Source of the DNA: a virus | Strand: one strand, 5' to 3' | UHGV virus genome: UHGV-0294841 | DNA length: 14,865 nucleotides | Part shown: one piece after another, positions 7,451 through 14,865 of the stretch | Numbering within the stretch: the stretch's first letter is position 1 | Layout of the letters: every line of letters begins with the position of its first letter | Notes under the pieces: model-generated | Told to the model about the DNA's origin: nothing | Seen by the model: only the letters and a program-made list of their open reading frames with translations | Database searches by the model: none | Program-made: the position numbers and the translations under genes

Positions 7451-7801
7451 TTACTTCAGCCGTTCACGGGCCGTCTTCGCCTTATGACACGGCCAGCACA
7501 GACTCTGCAGGTTACTGTCGGCATCGGTGCCGCCATGCGCTTTGGGAATGATGTGGTCAACGGTTTTCGCCTCGCGCACCACACCGGCACGCAGACACAA
7601 CTGACACAGGCCTTTGTCACGCTTCAGGACACGCGCGCGGATACTGTCCCACTTCGAACCGTAGCCGCGCTGATGACGGGATTGTCCAGGTTTGTATTGC
7701 TTCCAGCCTTCGCTTTTGTGGCTTTCGCAGTAGCCTGAAGGGTCCGTGGTTGTAGAGCGGCAGCCGCGAACACGGCAGGCTTTTGGGGTTCGTGGGGGCA
7801 T
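7451..7801 (-). CDS. HNH homing-type endonuclease, packaging-associated
   Basis: 116 aa with paired Cys ('CRVRGC...C'), a 'DHIIPKAHGG' catalytic His and 'N...CWPCH' zinc motif. Sits immediately upstream of terminase. GGAG SD present. Confidence 0.9.
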   Translation of the reverse strand: MPPRTPKACRVRGCRSTTTDPSGYCESHKSEGWKQYKPGQSRHQRGYGSKWDSIRARVLKRDKGLCQLCLRAGVVREAKTVDHIIPKAHGGTDADSNLQSLCWPCHKAKTARERLK

Positions 7802-8145: not shown

Positions 8146-8325
8146 TCCCCGCTTTATCCAAATTGCATTGCCAGAATGCCGACAACAGACTGACATTCAA
8201 ATCCTGACTACCTCCAATAGTCTGATCGTACACCTATATAGTTTTAATTTTCATCAATCCATTTAACTATCGTTTAATTGTTGTCACATAGGATTCTGCC
8301 GTTTTTAACAATGCAGGATAATAAG

Positions 8326-8619
8326 ATGAAAAAAATGTTGTTTTCTGCCGCTCTGGCTATGCTTATTACAGGATGTGCTCAACAGACGTTTACTGTTGGA
8401 AACAAACCGACAGCAGTAACACCAAAGGAAACCATCACCCATCATTTCTTCGTTTCGGGAATTGGACAGGAGAAAACTGTTGATGCAGCCAAAATTTGTG
8501 GCGGCGCAGAAAATGTTGTTAAAACAGAAACCCAGCAAACATTCGTAAATGGATTGCTCGGTTTTATTACTTTAGGCATTTATACTCCGCTGGAAGCGCG
8601 GGTGTATTGCTCACAATAA
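8326..8619 (+). CDS. bor: Bor outer-membrane lipoprotein (lambda Bor-like, serum-resistance moron)
   Basis: 'MKKMLFSAALAMLITGCAQQTFTV...EARVYCSQ' matches my recollection of lambda Bor closely, including the ITGC lipobox. I take the start as ATG 8326 (AGGA 8 nt upstream), not the track's TTG at 8278. Opposite strand to the late operon, AT-rich. Confidence 0.9.
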   Translation: MKKMLFSAALAMLITGCAQQTFTVGNKPTAVTPKETITHHFFVSGIGQEKTVDAAKICGGAENVVKTETQQTFVNGLLGFITLGIYTPLEARVYCSQ

Positions 8620-9588: not shown

Positions 9589-9915
9589 TTACTCCTTAGA
9601 GCCACCAAATTTGTTACCGATTACTCGCATTGCAGCCCCACGAATAGCATCGACACCGATCAGCCCCACCCCACCACCAATGGCAACAGATAGTGATTTA
9701 GGCCATCCGACATACTCAAGAGCGGATGCAAAAGTCAGCGTCAGAGCGCCACAGAGTAGAATTTCGAGTGTTTTTCGCTTCCAGCCGCCACCACCGCCAA
9801 AATAGGCGATACGTAAACCAGCCATAACAATCGACATAATCACTGCGCCCAGCGGTGTGTCTCCACGCCACCAGCTCTGGACCAACTCCAGCCAGGTATT
9901 TGGGTTATGAGGCAT
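9589..9915 (-). CDS. Holin (not lambda S family; multi-TM, Gly-rich)
   Basis: 108 aa immediately upstream of R with 2-3 hydrophobic segments and a GGGGG motif. ATG start with a GAGG-containing SD. Assigned by position and hydropathy rather than by family recognition. Confidence 0.7.
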   Translation of the reverse strand: MPHNPNTWLELVQSWWRGDTPLGAVIMSIVMAGLRIAYFGGGGGWKRKTLEILLCGALTLTFASALEYVGWPKSLSVAIGGGVGLIGVDAIRGAAMRVIGNKFGGSKE

Positions 9916-10066
9916 TTGTAGTTATCTCTCACCTCGCAATACAGGAGGTGCAAATTGAGGGAACATCATGTACCGCAAATCAGAAGCGGAAACGTAAAAG
10001 AAGTCGAGCCAATGGATAAGTACCAGATAGACCAAGCCCAACGAATACCAAGGCCTAGAAATGACA

Positions 10067-10088
10067 AAACCCGCTCGACGGCGGGTTT
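10067..10088 (-). terminator. Rho-independent terminator-like hairpin upstream of holin (tR'-like candidate)
   Basis: On the minus strand: aaacccgc-cgtcga-gcgggtttTGTCATTT, a GC-core stem followed by a U-rich tract. Lies ~150 bp upstream of the holin start, where lambdoid phages place the Q-antiterminated tR'. Confidence 0.5.
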
Positions 10089-10233
10089 AAGTTGTGTGGC
10101 GAAGTAACCACTCTTAACATGATACATCACTTTTTGCGGACCGTGCTAATGAAATATGTTCGTTAATTTAGTATGTTAAGGACTATCTAAATTGCCTTCA
10201 AAAAGTACAAAAAAATACAAAAAAGGGTTTCTT

Positions 10234-11331
10234 ATGAATGAGCAAACGATCAACCTTTTAAGAGATATCACCGAACGTGTTGGATGGAAGCTCACAAAAA
10301 AAATTGTGGGGGAACCACTTGGTGTCACATCAGTTGGCCTTGACCCATTTATCGCGAGGCTCCAAGCAACAGAAGATGTAGATCAGGAAGCTGTAAGTAC
10401 TCATATAGGTGAAGTATGGCAAAATTTACTATTGAGTGGGACCCGTTTAGTTAAGCTGTATAAGTTAGAACCGGAAGAAGTGCAAACTCTACGGGAGAAT
10501 ATAAATGCCCTAGAAAGAGACGAATCCGTTTTTTGCGAAAGCTATCCATATCCTTTGCCTAAAGATGTGTTGCTTGCAGCTGATACAGATCTTCATTTTT
10601 TAGAAACTACATTTTCTGTCGTAAACAAAGTTTCTTTAGAAACAACGATTCTTACGTCGAAAGCATACTACACAGAAACTATTGAACTCGACGCGACCCA
10701 TTTAAGCGATGCTGGGCTAGCTCTTCGCTCCAATGGTGGTGAAATCAAATGTAAAACACGTGAAGTTACACAGTGCTTTAATACAATAATGATTCTACCC
10801 GAGTTGCATTTACTTGCGCTCACTGTTGATTTATCTGTGATGCCTCGTTCAGAGTCGGAACGACAGCAATTTTTGCTTGATCAGTTTATTAGAACTACTA
10901 CTGGTTTGACTTTACCTGCGCCCATTGACCTCTTTGGATTAGTACAAGAAATGTACGAGCAAACAGATGGTAGAATCTCGCAGATGTCATTTCTTACATC
11001 AGATGGAAACACCAGCTCATTAAAACTCCGTCCGGGTGAAAGCTGCTTGCGCTCAGACAGCTACCATCATGGGGGCGAAGAGGCAAGTCCCATACTAACG
11101 AAATACAAACTCGGTAAAATTTGGGATCTGACTGATTCAGCTTCTCAAGTTTTCCCTGTAGAATTAATACTGCCAGGTAAACGGGCTATGATTGATAAAC
11201 CGAACAGTCACCTTTATGATGCAATCATAGATCGTTGCTCCTCAATTGAGCATATTTTGTTTGTAATCAACAAGATGTTAGAGTCACTATCAAGCATACA
11301 GAGAAAGCGAGCCACTGACGAGGCTGCATAA
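10234..11331 (+). CDS. Hypothetical protein A (365 aa), first gene of an AT-rich three-gene insert; no recognised domain
   Basis: 1.1-kb ORF in ~40% GC DNA (flanking phage genes roughly 50% or higher by my hand count), where chance ORFs are short. ATG 10234 preceded by AAAAGGG; the track's earlier start at 10192 is a TTG. 10-bp gap to gene B. Confidence 0.75.
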   Translation: MNEQTINLLRDITERVGWKLTKKIVGEPLGVTSVGLDPFIARLQATEDVDQEAVSTHIGEVWQNLLLSGTRLVKLYKLEPEEVQTLRENINALERDESVFCESYPYPLPKDVLLAADTDLHFLETTFSVVNKVSLETTILTSKAYYTETIELDATHLSDAGLALRSNGGEIKCKTREVTQCFNTIMILPELHLLALTVDLSVMPRSESERQQFLLDQFIRTTTGLTLPAPIDLFGLVQEMYEQTDGRISQMSFLTSDGNTSSLKLRPGESCLRSDSYHHGGEEASPILTKYKLGKIWDLTDSASQVFPVELILPGKRAMIDKPNSHLYDAIIDRCSSIEHILFVINKMLESLSSIQRKRATDEAA

Positions 11332-11341
11332 AGAGTTGATT

Positions 11342-11764
11342 ATGTTAACTAAACACGACATATACTCGAAAATCAACCACGACCTACATGGGCCGGTTGG
11401 AGATTTATGTCGTGTTGTGGTTGATTTTTTAACCAGCAAAGAAGCTAAGTCACTGAAACACATAACATATGTAAGTTTGGTTAATGGTACTAAGCTTGAT
11501 GTGCAAAATAACGATGCCAAAGTTTTACTGATCAAAGTAACTGACTATCTTTCGAGCAACAGAATGCACTTGCTAGATATGCATTTCCAGTATATCGAGT
11601 CTGACGATAGTGATCCTATTCCCGTCGATGATGATGACGTGTCTCATGCGCTTCATACAGGTAAGTTTTATCATCCTTACAGTGGTCAATTAGTCGATAA
11701 TTATAATCATTATTTGTTCCCATACTTCACTCCTACTGAGGCTTTGGAGGAATTACATGAGTGA
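11342..11764 (+). CDS. Hypothetical protein B (140 aa), acidic
   Basis: ATG 11342 with AAGAG SD. Stop overlaps gene C start by 8 bp (ATGAGTGA). Acidic tract 'ESDDSDPIPVDDDDV'. No family recognised. Confidence 0.7.
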   Translation: MLTKHDIYSKINHDLHGPVGDLCRVVVDFLTSKEAKSLKHITYVSLVNGTKLDVQNNDAKVLLIKVTDYLSSNRMHLLDMHFQYIESDDSDPIPVDDDDVSHALHTGKFYHPYSGQLVDNYNHYLFPYFTPTEALEELHE

Positions 11765-12392
11765 ATGTAATTTCAACCTTGCCCAATTAGACACCTTAAG
11801 TCAATTTGACCCTGAATTGTCTGGTTTTCTTAAGCGAAAATTTGCAGCAAGTCACGACGATTTCGTGAAGCAACTTTACGTTGACCTTGATGACGCGATG
11901 TATGTTTTGGAAACCCAAAAACATATGTATCAAACACAGCAGTGGGGTGAAGATGAGCTCACATCAGTTATTATTGCTTTTTTGAAAGGCCGTAATTATG
12001 ACGCTGAACATGACACTCAGCATGGAGGGCATATAGATATATTAGTTAAACATCAGCTCGGCCGATTTGCATGGATTGGCGAAGCTAAATTATGGAAAGG
12101 TCCTGCGTACATCTTAGGTGGATGGAACCAGCTCAACGAGCGATATGGCACTGGCACTGCGCGTGACAACCATGGTGGCATTATCATTTACTGTAAAATT
12201 AAGAAATCTGGCGAGAGACTTGATGACTGGCGAAAGCATCTTCAGCAGGAAGTAGCTGATGCAAAAATTACAACCGACGAGGATAATCCCTTGCGATTCA
12301 TGAGTACAACATTGCATCCAGCTACAAATCAACCATATTATGTAAGACATATGGTCGTTTCATTATTTCATGCTACAGGAGACTCAGAGTAG
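11757..12392 (+). CDS. Hypothetical protein C (211 aa) with PD-(D/E)xK nuclease-like motif
   Basis: 'GEDELTSVIIAFL...GGHIDILVKHQLGRFAWIGEAKLW' places an Asp at the end of a hydrophobic strand 15 residues before an E-A-K triplet, the classic PD-(D/E)xK arrangement, with an upstream Glu-containing helix. ATG start coupled to gene B. The 3' end overlaps the Q gene 3' end by 25 bp, convergently. Confidence 0.75.
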   Translation: MSECNFNLAQLDTLSQFDPELSGFLKRKFAASHDDFVKQLYVDLDDAMYVLETQKHMYQTQQWGEDELTSVIIAFLKGRNYDAEHDTQHGGHIDILVKHQLGRFAWIGEAKLWKGPAYILGGWNQLNERYGTGTARDNHGGIIIYCKIKKSGERLDDWRKHLQQEVADAKITTDEDNPLRFMSTTLHPATNQPYYVRHMVVSLFHATGDSE

Positions 12393-12754
12393 TCATCCAT
12401 TTCAAGTTTCACATCCAGCATACTTAGGCAGCCATCGATAAAACCTTCAGCAACCTGTATCTCGATACGTATCAATTTTTCGTCTTTATTACGTGCCTTT
12501 GCGATCTTTCTTTTCGAGATGCCATACAGGTAATGAGCCACAATCAAAGAATGTTCGTACGGTTTTCTCTTCTTAAGAAGAGCAAGGCTACCTTCAATAA
12601 TTAATGCATCACTATCTGAACAAGCTAGACGTGTCTTTCTGGTATATGGAAGAAGCCCCTTAAACCCAGCAGCTATAGACGAATAGTCAACTCCTGAGCT
12701 ATCACTCGCTGCCCATGCCCCCCAACGTTCAAGGATCATCTGTATATTACGCAT
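12368..12754 (-). CDS. Q: Late-gene antiterminator Q (21/82/QuuD-like family)
   Basis: 'MRNIQMILERWGAWAA...SSIAAGFKGL...IEGMLSMLDVKLEMD' resembles QuuD/Q21-type antiterminators as I recall them, and the ~128-aa size fits. Start taken as ATG 12754 with GGAGA SD. Sits upstream of the lysis cassette. Confidence 0.75.
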   Translation of the reverse strand: MRNIQMILERWGAWAASDSSGVDYSSIAAGFKGLLPYTRKTRLACSDSDALIIEGSLALLKKRKPYEHSLIVAHYLYGISKRKIAKARNKDEKLIRIEIQVAEGFIDGCLSMLDVKLEMDDYSESPVA

Positions 12755-12772
12755 CAACTTTCTCCGAAAAAA

Positions 12773-13768
12773 TCAGGCCAGCACGCCAATTGCCAGCGCA
12801 CGATCGATAAAACGAAATATCAGCTCCAACTGGGAACCATACTTCTCTTCAAATGCCACGGTATCCGCATGCAGCTCGTCGTGATGCTTTCTGCACAAAG
12901 GCAACACAAAGAGGTCATGCGCTTTTGTACCCATTCCACCCTGACCATGGCCTATCAGGTGGTGGGGATCATCAGCAGGCTTTCCACAACATGTACACGG
13001 CTGTGTCTTAACCCAGCGCGTGTACTTTTCATTAACCCAGCGGCGACGTTTTGGGCGTAACATAAAAGACTCCGGCGACTCCGGATCCACTTTCAGCGCC
13101 AGCACCTTTTTTGCCTTATCCTGGATGATGCTGGTGGCAGGAACCGAAGGCACAAGGTCACTTTCCCGGGTGACAGACGGCACAACAGGCTTTGGTAATC
13201 TCAGTGCCTTACGGGCTGCACTTTCCGGTAAGGCATCCGCCAAGTCATTACGAATCAGCCACCAGCACAGTTCCGGCATTGTCACAACGTGACTATCATC
13301 AAAACCGAGATCCCGACGCACAACAGACAACATCCAGCGGGCACAGTTATCCGTTGCCATTGATTCCAGCCGTTCCGTGAACTGATCGCGCAGCTGGTTA
13401 TCGCAGTGCCAGCACAGACGGATTGCGCCCGGAGCGTGTCGCATTGTTGTCATGTTCTCGCTGTGCCAGTCGGAATGAGGCCACTGGCAGCCTTTTTCAC
13501 GAAGTAACCAGCTTTCAAGACATTCCACGCCACCAGCACGACGGATCACTGCCTCATTGCGGAACACGGCCCGAACGGCAGGATCATCCGCCAGCGGTTG
13601 TGATGCCGCCGGAACGGCACCACTGGCGAAAGATGAATAACGTTCCGGCTCAGGCTCCAGCAGGACACGCCCCTGCATAAACAGGGGCATCAGCTCTGAA
13701 CCTGGTCTGAACAATACGATCCCCATACGTGGGGCAATTTCAGGGGTCAGTAGTGCTCTCACGGTCAC
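12773..13768 (-). CDS. DUF968-family prophage protein (YdfU-like) with C-terminal Cys/His HNH-like cluster
   Basis: 331 aa; C-terminus 'CTCCGKPADDPHHLIGHGQGGMGTKAHDLFVLPLCRKHHDELH' is the zinc-finger/HNH-like tail I associate with DUF968 proteins of lambdoid prophages. Track start is GTG; an internal ATG at 13726 is an alternative. Confidence 0.7.
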   Translation of the reverse strand: MTVRALLTPEIAPRMGIVLFRPGSELMPLFMQGRVLLEPEPERYSSFASGAVPAASQPLADDPAVRAVFRNEAVIRRAGGVECLESWLLREKGCQWPHSDWHSENMTTMRHAPGAIRLCWHCDNQLRDQFTERLESMATDNCARWMLSVVRRDLGFDDSHVVTMPELCWWLIRNDLADALPESAARKALRLPKPVVPSVTRESDLVPSVPATSIIQDKAKKVLALKVDPESPESFMLRPKRRRWVNEKYTRWVKTQPCTCCGKPADDPHHLIGHGQGGMGTKAHDLFVLPLCRKHHDELHADTVAFEEKYGSQLELIFRFIDRALAIGVLA

Positions 13769-13769
13769 C

Positions 13770-14579
13770 TCAATGAACGGTATCGAGCAGCTTTAACAGC
13801 TCAGGGAATCGGGATTCGAAGAAATGCGGCTGCGTCTCGCGCGGATTTGCGGGACTGGTGATGTTCTTGCCGAACATGCAGCCTTTCGCTGTCAGCGACC
13901 AGAATTTTTTGATGTTGTTAATCGCGGTACGACTGTATCGTTCGCGTTGTTCAACGATCCCCAGCTTCGCCATCTGGTGATATGCCTGATTAGCCGTCAG
14001 GCGTATACCATACTGTTTCAGCAGTGCACTCAGTGACAGTGTCGGGCGACTTGAGCCATCGTGTGCATCAGCAGGAGCATCAATGGCATAGCGCGGTGCC
14101 AGATTCGGTAAGCCAACAGCCTCCTGGAGTTTCTGACAGGCACCAAGCACAGATGAGTTAGACAGGTTTAACTCCCGACGCATAAAGTCCAGCAGAATCA
14201 CACCAGCCTGCATCTTGTCAGCAGCCTGTCCGGATAATTTTTCCGGTGCGCTGGTTACCATGTCGAAAGTACGGATCACCTTCAGATGGAATGACGGGCT
14301 GATCCACATTGCATAGGCATACACCAGTTCCTTGCAGACATAAGTTCCCCGTTCATTTCCCCCATGAATCACACTCACCGGGTCAACACCCAAATTCTGG
14401 GTGTTGGTCAATTCATGAACAAGCTCAACAGTTTGTTGGCTGGAAAGAAACTTTCCCGGCTCCTTGGTTCTGGCATTTGCACCAGATGCTACTGCTGCGC
14501 GATGCAGATCGTTCAGGCTGTAACGCCCATAAGCATCACGACGAACTTCAATACCATCAATGACCATCAGATTATTCAT
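13770..14579 (-). CDS. KilA-N domain protein (antirepressor-like)
   Basis: N-terminus 'MNNLMVIDGIEVRRDAYGRYSLNDLHRAAVASG...' is KilA-N-like. I start it at ATG 14579 (GAGGAG SD about 10 nt upstream) rather than the track's GTG at 14612. Confidence 0.7.
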   Translation of the reverse strand: MNNLMVIDGIEVRRDAYGRYSLNDLHRAAVASGANARTKEPGKFLSSQQTVELVHELTNTQNLGVDPVSVIHGGNERGTYVCKELVYAYAMWISPSFHLKVIRTFDMVTSAPEKLSGQAADKMQAGVILLDFMRRELNLSNSSVLGACQKLQEAVGLPNLAPRYAIDAPADAHDGSSRPTLSLSALLKQYGIRLTANQAYHQMAKLGIVEQRERYSRTAINNIKKFWSLTAKGCMFGKNITSPANPRETQPHFFESRFPELLKLLDTVH

Positions 14580-14598
14580 ACTTCGTTTCTCCTCTTGA

Positions 14599-14865
14599 TC
14601 AGGCGGCTGCACCCGCCGTTTTCTCGTACTTACTGATAGTGATCTCGACCTTCCCTTTCGGGATAACCGGTCCCCACTCCACCAGCATTCTTTTCACCTG
14701 ACTGTCGTCTTCCCACACACCCGCGTGGGTCAGGGCGTCAAACAGCGCCTTGTTATAGTTGTCCAGATCGCGGATCCGGTTATCCGGAGGAAACAACACG
14801 ATCTCCACTGAAGCAGGTGCCGACGTTGGTTTTGGCAGACGACGTAACTGCTCAACTATTGCTGC
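14599..14865 (-). CDS. rusA: RusA-family Holliday junction resolvase, 5'-partial (runs off the window end)
   Basis: 'PPDNRIRDLDNYNKALFDALTHAGVWEDDSQV' matches the RusA catalytic-region signature (RRRDLDN...FDAL...DD). Hand translation of 14809-14865 in frame gives 19 further codons with no stop, so the true start lies beyond the window. Confidence 0.85.
   Translation of the reverse strand, partial: AAIVEQLRRLPKPTSAPASVEIVLFPPDNRIRDLDNYNKALFDALTHAGVWEDDSQVKRMLVEWGPVIPKGKVEITISKYEKTAGAAA

What the first reader, a model, noticed from the sequence alone, without database searches (positions are those of the whole stretch)
12368..12392. Convergent 25-bp overlap between the insert's last gene and the Q antiterminator
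The final 8 codons of gene C and of Q are encoded on opposite strands of the same 25 bp. This marks the insertion junction and implies transcriptional interference or antisense coupling between the cassette and Q, the switch that commits the prophage to late gene expression. A defence cassette whose transcription reads antisense into Q could damp spontaneous induction, or the reverse.
Basis: partly seen in the sequence, partly recalled or inferred. Interest (0 to 1): 0.5.

Follow-up and report, generated by a model that had tools for sequence, protein, structure and literature searches.

The report
Stop-codon loss makes Q overlap its neighbour
The 25-bp overlap is real, but it is an ordinary by-product of one base change that removed the stop codon of the phage Q gene, so that Q now runs seven codons into the end of the neighbouring cargo gene; the more telling feature is that this cargo cassette, unlike other cargo at the same site, has no terminator between itself and Q.

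Summary
The overlap is confirmed. Gene C (11757-12392, +) and Q (12368-12757, -) share 25 bp, and RefSeq annotates both the same way.

It arose by stop-codon loss. In Salmonella, Enterobacter, Klebsiella and a distant E. coli variant, the same three-gene cassette abuts a Q21-family (PF06530) Q with interlocked stop codons (CTAG, TTAA or TTAG; 4-bp overlap). In the window, position 12389 is G instead of C or T. That changes Q's stop (TAG or TAA in relatives) to TAC (Tyr) and C's last codon from Asp to Glu. Q then reads on through YSESPVA to TGA at 12368-12370.

The added tail lies beyond the Pfam Q domain, where homologues vary in length. Gene C's matching tail is unstructured in the model. The extended Q is under purifying selection (dN/dS 0.12) in two prophage backbones.

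Homology with other Q alleles stops at 12391-12396, so the junction is the right edge of the overlap.

The cassette lies in a variable cargo slot between Q and a putative late promoter. 28 of 31 distinct sequences downstream of Q carry a strong hairpin after Q's stop; this cassette has none. Antisense coupling with Q is therefore possible but untested. Interest is low to moderate.

The parts
12368..12392 (.). 25-bp tail-to-tail overlap. It holds the last 7 sense codons plus the stop of gene C (+ strand: H A T G D S E *) and the last 7 sense codons plus the stop of Q (- strand: Y S E S P V A *), in phase (123:213).
12389..12392 (.). Ancestral interlocked-stop tetramer. It is GTAG here and CTAG, TTAA or TTAG in relatives. 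G at 12389 is the substitution that turns Q's stop (TAG or TAA in relatives) into TAC (Tyr) and C's last codon GAY (Asp) into GAG (Glu).
   Evidence: Gapless alignment with Enterobacter L085; junction table for L085, L086, L089-92, L094/95
12368..12388 (-). The remaining 18 nt of Q's read-through extension (S E S P V A) plus the new stop TGA at 12368-12370. The TGA is the antisense of the conserved Phe-His codons TTT|CAT of gene C. The first extension codon, Tyr TAC, is at 12389-12391.
   Evidence: Relatives would reach the same stop 7 codons on if they lost theirs.
12368..12757 (-). Q antiterminator gene, Q21/933W family (PF06530), 129 aa. The likely real start is the ATG at 12754. The Pfam domain covers residues 2-119.
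   Evidence: E 3.9e-50; Q21, PDB 6P18, E 3.6e-4; dN/dS 0.12 against L089
11757..12392 (+). Cassette gene C, 211 aa, with a PD-(D/E)xK nuclease fold and invariant D94, E109 and K111. The last ~9 residues are unstructured in the model.
11342..11764 (+). Cassette gene B, 140 aa, function unknown (phrog_11490). It overlaps C by 8 bp.
10234..11331 (+). Cassette gene A, 365 aa, function unknown (phrog_12777). It has no Pfam, NCBIfam or PADLOC match.
10149..10177 (+). Putative cassette promoter: ATGAAA, 17-nt spacer, TATGTT. Hexamers and spacing are conserved in five cassette loci. This is an inference from conservation only.
   Evidence: Alignment A6. It matches 8 of 12 consensus positions, below the scan threshold used.
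10060..10146 (-). Conserved element that looks like a late promoter (pR') and its terminator (tR'): CGGTCCGCAAAAA...TAnnnT GTTAAGAGTGG, then hairpin 10088..10067 with a T-run, upstream of holin S. In 'empty-site' phages this element follows Q's stop within about 20 nt.

Best explanation
The overlap is a stop-codon-mutation overlap. The three-gene cassette A-B-C is cargo with its own putative promoter and no terminator. It sits in the variable slot between the Q antiterminator gene and the late-promoter-like element, and it points towards Q.

In this cassette lineage, gene C's stop codon is interlocked with Q's stop codon on the other strand (tetramer YTAR), leaving no spacer. In the E. coli branch a transversion at the shared wobble position (window 12389, C/T to G) changed C's last residue from Asp to Glu and destroyed Q's stop (TAG or TAA in relatives, now TAC). 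Ribosomes translating Q therefore continue for seven codons (YSESPVA) on the antisense of C's last codons, to a TGA fixed by C's conserved Phe-His codons.

Both overlapped peptide tails are dispensable-looking ends. Q's tail is outside the Pfam domain, in a region of variable length. C's tail is variable in sequence and low in model confidence. So the 25 bp most likely have no function of their own (inferred).

What may matter functionally is the missing terminator. Cassette transcripts have no intrinsic stop and must run antisense into Q until Rho or chance ends them. Early-operon transcripts that pass Q must run antisense through C-B-A towards the late-promoter element (inferred, not shown).
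For: - Origin of the overlap. The window and Enterobacter L085 align without gaps across the junction, and CTAG versus GTAG is the difference that removes Q's stop. A 4-bp interlock is present in L085, L086, L092 and L094/95. The 25-bp state occurs only in the window, L005-L008 and L089-91.
- Q length. Homologues end at 121-122 aa, so the window has 7 extra residues. PF06530 ends at residue 119.
- Junction position. Other E. coli Q alleles match only from window 12391-12396 onward.
- Age and selection. Between the two 129-aa lineages, dN/dS is 0.12 for Q (dS 0.38), 0.14 for C, 0.06 for B and 0.10 for A. The extended Q is therefore functional and not recent.
- Gene C's tail. Model confidence falls to about 50 at the last residues, which have no secondary structure. 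The family alignment is variable after ...LFHxxG.
- Missing terminator. The + strand fold at the junction is unremarkable (z 0.22), against z -4.3 to -5.7 for three other alleles. 28 of 31 distinct downstream sequences have hairpins of -13 to -24 kcal/mol. No + strand intrinsic terminator is found before about 14600.
- Co-inheritance. Q co-diverges with A, B and C and shares their low GC (0.42 against 0.55 for DUF968).
- Known mechanism. PMC2174442 reports that convergent 4-nt overlaps use CTAA, TTAA, CTAG or TTAG and that stop-codon mutation is the main source of longer convergent overlaps.
Against: - No transcript or protein data were available, so neutrality of the Q tail is inferred.
- In the solved relative Q21, the last six residues become ordered and contact the RNAP alpha/beta interface (bioRxiv 10.1101/651190). 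A 7-residue appendage could therefore change Q activity.
- The terminator-less abutment persists over deep divergence of the cassette, down to 50% identity in A. It also recurs in Vibrio next to a different small convergent gene. That persistence could reflect selection rather than history.
- The direction of the change (loss in E. coli rather than gain elsewhere) rests on outgroup lengths, not on a rooted tree.
Confidence: 0.85

Rival explanations
1. Selected antisense or transcriptional-interference coupling. The lack of a terminator between C and Q is maintained because convergent transcription links the two units. In the lysogen, cassette transcription reads antisense into Q and damps leaky Q expression. 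After induction, early transcription through Q runs antisense across C-B-A and silences the nuclease cassette while the phage replicates.
For: - There is no hairpin between C and Q in any cassette-Q locus, whereas 28 of the 31 distinct sequences downstream of Q have a strong one.
- The abutment is conserved from 95% down to 50% cassette identity, with 4-, 12- and 25-bp overlaps.
- No + strand intrinsic terminator is found for about 2.2 kb past C.
- There is a precedent: lambda's paQ antisense RNA lowers Q expression (PMC12197685; PMC7547250).
Against: - No expression data were available.
- The + strand RNA beyond C's stop is untranslated and C-rich (C/G 2.3 in the first 78 nt), which suits Rho-dependent termination. 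Rho usually removes such antisense read-through (own knowledge).
- Q is not transcribed in a repressed lysogen, so there is little to damp (own knowledge).
- In empty-site phages Q also has no terminator of its own, so its absence on Q's side is the default state.
- Co-inheritance is enough to explain the conservation.
Confidence: 0.15
2. The 7-residue tail is adaptive. It modifies a C-terminal contact of Q with RNA polymerase and so tunes antitermination or lysis timing.
For: - In Q21 the six C-terminal residues engage RNAP.
- The tail is identical in two lineages whose Q proteins differ by 9%.
- Q is under purifying selection.
Against: - The tail is held in place by gene C's coding sequence on the other strand. 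The two substitutions seen inside the overlap fall on shared wobble positions and are silent in both frames, so conservation of the tail says nothing about Q.
- C-termini in this Q subfamily vary freely in length and sequence, from 103 to 127 aa.
- The match to Q21 covers only residues 9-88.
Confidence: 0.06
3. Annotation artefact or decaying gene. One of the two ORFs really ends earlier, or Q is a pseudogene in a defective prophage, so there is no meaningful overlap.
For: - Stop-codon loss is a common first step of gene decay (own knowledge).
- The cassette proteins have no characterised function.
Against: - There is no in-frame stop in Q between 12757 and 12370.
- Gene C's stop position is conserved in its 211-aa homologues.
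- dN/dS is 0.06-0.14 for all four genes.
- The lysis and structural genes flanking the region are intact ORFs.
Confidence: 0.03

Closest known systems
Convergent (tail-to-tail) gene overlaps generated by stop-codon mutation (Lillo & Krakauer 2007, PMC2174442)
   Same: The ancestral state is one of the four canonical interlocked-stop tetramers (CTAG, TTAA or TTAG seen in relatives). A single substitution in a stop codon causes read-through to the next in-frame stop inside the neighbour. The phase (123:213) is inherited from the 4-nt overlap.
   Different: Nothing essential differs. The special point here is that one substitution is non-synonymous but conservative in one gene (Asp to Glu) and abolishes the stop of the other.
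Lambda paQ / aQ antisense RNA control of Q
   Same: It is an RNA antisense to Q that lowers Q expression and delays late gene expression.
   Different: paQ is a dedicated CII-activated promoter inside Q. Here any antisense RNA would be unterminated read-through from a cargo operon. No such transcript has been shown.
Morons and defence hot spots in temperate phages (P2/P4 hot spots, PMC9122126; Stx cargo downstream of pR' in 933W-like phages)
   Same: It is a fixed genomic slot between conserved phage genes that holds many unrelated, exchangeable cargo cassettes, some matching PADLOC defence candidates (PDC-S20, PDC-M53A, PDC-M68A).
   Different: The slot lies between Q and the late-promoter-like element, and the cargo is oriented against Q. 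It is therefore outside the Q-dependent late transcript, unlike stx. The A-B-C cassette also lacks the terminator that typical morons carry.
Q21/933W-family antiterminators (PF06530; PDB 6P18, 6JNX)
   Same: The window's Q matches PF06530 over its full length and has a weak direct match to Q21. It lies upstream of the lysis genes, as expected.
   Different: It is 129 aa against 162 aa for Q21. The C-terminal region is not alignable, and the 7 extra residues come from antisense cassette DNA.

Membership tests
Q antiterminator, Q21/933W family (PF06530) | Sequence match to the family profile above the curated threshold | tested here: met
   169.2 bits against a cut-off of 26, E 3.9e-50, residues 2-119 on profile positions 1-118 of 118. 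phrog_79 'anti-termination protein Q-like' at 2.4e-43.
Q antiterminator, Q21/933W family (PF06530) | Homology to the structurally solved member Q21 | tested here: inconclusive
   phmmer match to 6P18/6JNX at E 3.6e-4, covering only residues 9-88. The C-terminal part could not be compared.
Q antiterminator, Q21/933W family (PF06530) | Cognate late promoter with a Q-binding element, a sigma-dependent pause site and a downstream terminator, ahead of the lysis genes | tested here: inconclusive
   A conserved element with a TAnnnT hexamer and a hairpin plus T-run (10088..10067) lies upstream of holin S, and it directly follows Q in empty-site phages. No promoter hexamer pair reached the scan threshold, and the Q-binding element was not identified.
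Q antiterminator, Q21/933W family (PF06530) | Antitermination activity | not testable with these tools
   Only indirect support: dN/dS 0.12.
Convergent overlap by stop-codon mutation | Relatives keep both genes with a shorter overlap or none, and the difference is a substitution in the stop codon | tested here: met
   CTAG, TTAA or TTAG in four relatives, GTAG in the window.
Convergent overlap by stop-codon mutation | The extension ends at the first in-frame stop in the neighbour, and its length is within chance expectation | tested here: met
   The first stop is 7 codons on. There are 12 stops in 211 codons in that frame, and relatives have a stop at the same place.
Known anti-phage defence system (PADLOC v2 families) | Significant profile match of the cassette proteins to a named system | tested here: not met
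   A and B have no hit. C has only a weak hit to the candidate PDC-S54 (E 6.9e-6, 23.8 bits, partial). Pfam and NCBIfam give nothing.
PD-(D/E)xK nuclease superfamily (gene C) | Restriction-endonuclease-like fold with a conserved D...(D/E)xK motif | tested here: met
Antisense RNA control of Q (paQ-like) | A transcript antisense to Q exists and lowers Q expression | not testable with these tools
   There is only the absence of a terminator and a Rho-favourable composition.

The most novel reading that the evidence does not exclude
The A-B-C nuclease cassette and Q form a co-inherited four-gene unit. Its deliberately terminator-less, stop-to-stop junction would then work as a convergent-transcription switch. 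In the lysogen the cassette is expressed, and its read-through keeps leaky Q low. After induction, early transcription through Q runs antisense over C-B-A and shuts the nuclease off. The prophage would thereby gain self-immunity from its own defence cargo.
Probability: 0.12. Interest if true: 0.6.

Novelty: new member of a known kind. Interest (0 to 1): 0.25.

Why it matters
The overlap itself is a clean, datable example of how one wobble-position change in one gene can lengthen the gene on the other strand. It adds nothing conceptually new.

The surrounding architecture is more useful. The gap between a Q21-family Q and a putative late promoter is a cargo slot with about 20 unrelated cargo types, all convergent with Q, several of them candidate defence genes. 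Anything lodged there is genetically tied to Q.

The A-B-C cassette contains a PD-(D/E)xK nuclease and two proteins with no known family. It is an uncharacterised candidate defence or exclusion system. It is also the cargo type in this survey that clearly lacks a terminator next to the gene controlling late expression. That makes it a simple natural test case for whether cargo transcription interferes with the lysis switch.

Tried and rejected
- Relatedness of cargo alleles. I tested whether the cargo of other alleles (SfII orf49/50, DUF6731) are diverged homologues of A or C. They are not.
- Hidden terminator at the junction. None was found on the + strand. The AU-rich hairpin inside gene C (CCATAT N10 ATATGG) folds at only -4.9 kcal/mol on the + strand in the window (z -0.15) and is built from conserved Pro-Tyr and His-Met codons. 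I rejected it as a terminator. It would also end the mRNA before C's stop.
- Silent substitutions as evidence for selection on Q's tail. Two substitutions inside the overlap are silent in both frames. I rejected this as evidence because third codon positions coincide in this phase, so selection on C alone predicts the same pattern.
- Other RNA genes. Rfam and tRNA scans of the window found nothing.
- Literature. Searches for the cassette's accession numbers and PHROG ids found nothing.
- Exact late-promoter hexamers and Q-binding element. I could not assign them, and no hexamer pair reached the scan threshold.

Full report
**Setting.** The window is part of an E. coli lambdoid prophage of the SfII/SfV type, with its late genes on the minus strand.
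- Reading along the minus strand, the order is KilA-N (13770-14612), DUF968/HNH (12773-13768) and Q (12368-12757). Three plus-strand ORFs follow: A (10234-11331), B (11342-11764) and C (11757-12392). After them come holin S (9589-9915), endolysin R and Rz on the minus strand.
- Q matches PF06530 at E 3.9e-50 over residues 2-119. It has a weak direct match to the solved Q21 protein (6P18, E 3.6e-4, residues 9-88). A preprint on Q21 assigns PF06530 to the Q21/933W family (10.1101/651190).

**Observation.** The overlap is real.
- C ends with TAG at 12390-12392, and Q ends with TGA on the reverse strand at 12370-12368. The shared stretch is 12368-12392, 25 bp.
- RefSeq annotates the same two ends.
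- Each gene contributes seven sense codons and its stop. Third codon positions face each other, which is phase (123:213).

**Origin of the overlap.** The same cassette occurs in other Enterobacterales, again convergent with a PF06530 Q.
- Loci found: Enterobacter sp. kpr-6 (L085), Salmonella (L086), Klebsiella (L092), a distant E. coli variant (L094/95) and E. cloacae (L097).
- In L085, L086, L092 and L094/95 the two stop codons interlock in a tetramer (cTAG, tTAA, tTAG, tTAA), giving a 4-bp overlap. L097 has a 12-bp overlap.
- The window aligns to L085 without gaps across the junction. Where L085 has CTAG, the window has GTAG.
- G at 12389 therefore does two things. It makes C's last codon GAG (Glu) instead of GAY (Asp). 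On the other strand it makes Q's stop (TAG or TAA in relatives) into TAC (Tyr).
- Q then continues through TCT GAG TCT CCT GTA GCA to TGA, adding YSESPVA. That TGA is the antisense of C's conserved Phe-His codons, and relatives would stop at the same place.
- Related Q proteins end at 121-122 aa (...LEME...LDLDV...LDMDS), while the window's Q has 129 aa.
- This is the stop-codon-mutation route to convergent overlaps described by Lillo and Krakauer, who also list CTAA, TTAA, CTAG and TTAG as the tetramers of 4-nt convergent overlaps (PMC2174442).
- With 12 stops in 211 codons in that antisense frame, a 7-codon extension needs no special explanation.

**Position of the exchange junction.** A megablast of A-B-C plus Q against 5,426 complete E. 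coli genomes found 12 genomes with the whole block at 100% identity. The other 341 genomes with a match (353 in all) match only the Q end of the query; in every listed hit the match starts at query position 2158-2163, which is window 12391-12396. Homology with other Q alleles therefore ends at the canonical Q stop. The 25 bp belong to the cassette side, and only their right edge is the junction.

**Whether the extended Q is functional.** The 25-bp state occurs in a second E. coli prophage backbone with RusA before Q, a different holin and extra genes beyond A (L089-91).
- Identities to the window in that backbone are 95% (A), 94% (B), 92% (C) and 91% (Q).
- Between the two lineages, dN/dS is 0.12 for Q (dS 0.38), 0.14 for C, 0.06 for B and 0.10 for A. 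The extended Q has been kept under purifying selection for a substantial time.
- The two substitutions inside the overlap are silent in both frames. This carries little weight, because wobble positions coincide.
- C's tail is variable in the family alignment after the invariant His205. It is unstructured with low confidence in an otherwise confident model (pLDDT 90.4).
- Q tails of 103 to 127 aa occur in other alleles.
- One caution applies. In Q21, six C-terminal residues contact RNA polymerase, so an effect of the tail cannot be excluded.

**The cargo slot.** I surveyed 80 IMG/VR loci encoding close relatives of this Q.
- Four carry A-B-C, each with the 25-bp overlap.
- Five are empty sites. 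There, Q's stop is followed within about 20 nt by the element CGGTCCGCAAAAA...GTTAAGAGTGG.
- In the window that element lies at about 10100-10146 on the minus strand, just upstream of a hairpin with a T-run (10088..10067) and of holin S.
- This is the expected position of the late promoter and its terminator. I could not assign the promoter hexamers with confidence.
- The remaining loci carry about 20 unrelated cargo types. Nearly all show a cargo ORF convergent with Q, with a 12-204 bp gap after Q's stop.
- Of 31 distinct downstream sequences, 28 carry a strong GC-rich hairpin (-13 to -24 kcal/mol) straight after Q's stop. The exceptions are the A-B-C allele, the empty site and one further allele (L068/L079) with no convergent ORF of 60 aa or more.
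- Folds of three of these alleles give z-scores of -4.3 to -5.7.
- Some of the cargo matches PADLOC candidate defence families: KAP NTPase to PDC-S20, SfII orf50 to PDC-M53A, and an HNH-like protein to PDC-M68A.

**The missing terminator.** The A-B-C modules have no such hairpin.
- The plus-strand fold around the window junction is no better than shuffled sequence (z 0.22).
- No plus-strand intrinsic terminator is predicted before about 14600.
- The only recurrent stem is an AU-rich one inside C, made from Pro-Tyr and His-Met codons. It is weak in the window (-4.9 kcal/mol).
- The plus-strand RNA beyond C's stop is C-rich and G-poor (C/G 2.3 in the first 78 nt), which would favour Rho.

**Co-inheritance of cassette and Q.**
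- Q diverges in step with the cassette. Identities to the window for A/B/C/Q are 95/94/92/91, 84/80/80/77, 80/81/79/70, 63/71/71/71 and 50/53/56/32.
- The late-promoter-like motifs lie at a constant distance upstream of A in four loci.
- Q shares the cassette's low GC (0.42, against 0.55 for DUF968 and 0.52 for S).
- Q, C-B-A and the late-promoter element therefore behave as one linked block.
- A simple reason (inference) is that Q and its cognate promoter must stay together, so anything lodged between them is carried along.
- A putative cassette promoter, ATGAAA-17-TATGTT at 10149-10177, is conserved in five loci.

**Identity of the cassette.**
- A and B have no recognisable domain.
- 'Defence cassette' is a reasonable guess from the fold and the neighbourhood, but no known system matches.
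- In Vibrio harveyi the cassette abuts a DUF3653/HTH gene with a 4-bp interlock. In Yersinia it has a 16-bp gap to an unrelated gene.

**Interpretation.**
- The 25-bp overlap most likely has no function of its own.
It remains untested.
- Rho termination and simple co-inheritance are sufficient alternatives.
- I put about 0.85 on the stop-loss origin with no dedicated function. I put about 0.12-0.15 on a selected convergent-transcription link between the cassette and Q.

Noticed in passing
window 12777-12797 (minus strand): A terminator-like hairpin (GCTGGCAATTGGCGTGCTGGC) followed by CTGATTTTTT lies at the 3' end of the DUF968 gene, ending a few bases before its stop codon (12773-12775), about 20 nt upstream of Q's start. 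It could be an early-operon terminator gating Q expression, like the tR terminators of lambda.
   Followed up: no
window 10060-10146 (minus strand); L016, L017, L021, L023, L029: The conserved element CGGTCCGCAAAAA...TAnnnT GTTAAGAGTGG, plus hairpin 10088..10067 and a T-run, lies upstream of holin S. In five 'empty-site' phages it follows Q's stop within about 20 nt. It is probably the late promoter, Q-loading site and terminator. The hexamers and Q-binding element were not assigned.
   Followed up: partly
L002-L084 (region just downstream of Q): The gap between Q and the late-promoter-like element is a cargo hot spot. It holds about 20 unrelated cargo types; wherever a cargo ORF was found it is convergent with Q, and nearly all have a bidirectional-looking hairpin. 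Examples are KAP NTPase (PADLOC PDC-S20, 7e-177), SfII orf50 (PDC-M53A), an HNH-like protein (PDC-M68A), a NYN-domain protein and an SDH-type protease.
   Followed up: partly
window 10234-12757: Q shares the low GC of the cassette (A 0.41, B 0.38, C 0.42, Q 0.42) against 0.55 for DUF968 and 0.52 for S. Q also co-diverges with A, B and C across genera. Q and the cassette behave as one inherited block.
   Followed up: yes
window 12331-12358: The inverted repeat CCATAT N10 ATATGG inside gene C is built from Pro-Tyr and His-Met codons and recurs in all cassette loci. One stem pair differs in a compensatory way (A-T in the window and L089, G-C in L085, L086 and L092). It is weak on the + strand in the window (-4.9 kcal/mol) and stronger on the - strand (-11.4 kcal/mol, z -2.0).
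   Followed up: partly
L096:3501-4594; L097:3501-4475; L087:4001-6029: The cassette's last gene is packed tail-to-tail against different neighbours. In Vibrio harveyi it has a 4-bp interlock with a DUF3653/HTH gene. In E. cloacae it has a 12-bp overlap with a 115-aa Q. In Yersinia it has a 16-bp gap to an unrelated 459-aa gene.
   Followed up: partly
window 12754-12757: Q is listed and annotated from TTG at 12757. The adjacent ATG at 12754 has GGAG 7 nt upstream and matches homologues that start MRD..., so it is the more likely start (128 aa).
   Followed up: no
window 11757-11764 and 11332-11341: B and C overlap by 8 bp, and A and B are 10 bp apart. This suggests a single translationally coupled operon.
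   Followed up: no
window 8278-8619 (+): A Bor/Iss-type lipoprotein gene (PF06291, 1e-30) lies on the opposite strand just after Rz in a low-GC patch (0.39-0.40). It is a second, classical moron in this prophage.
   Followed up: no
window 7451-7801 (-): An HNH endonuclease gene (PF01844, 2e-16) lies next to the packaging genes, as in HK97-like cos phages.
   Followed up: no
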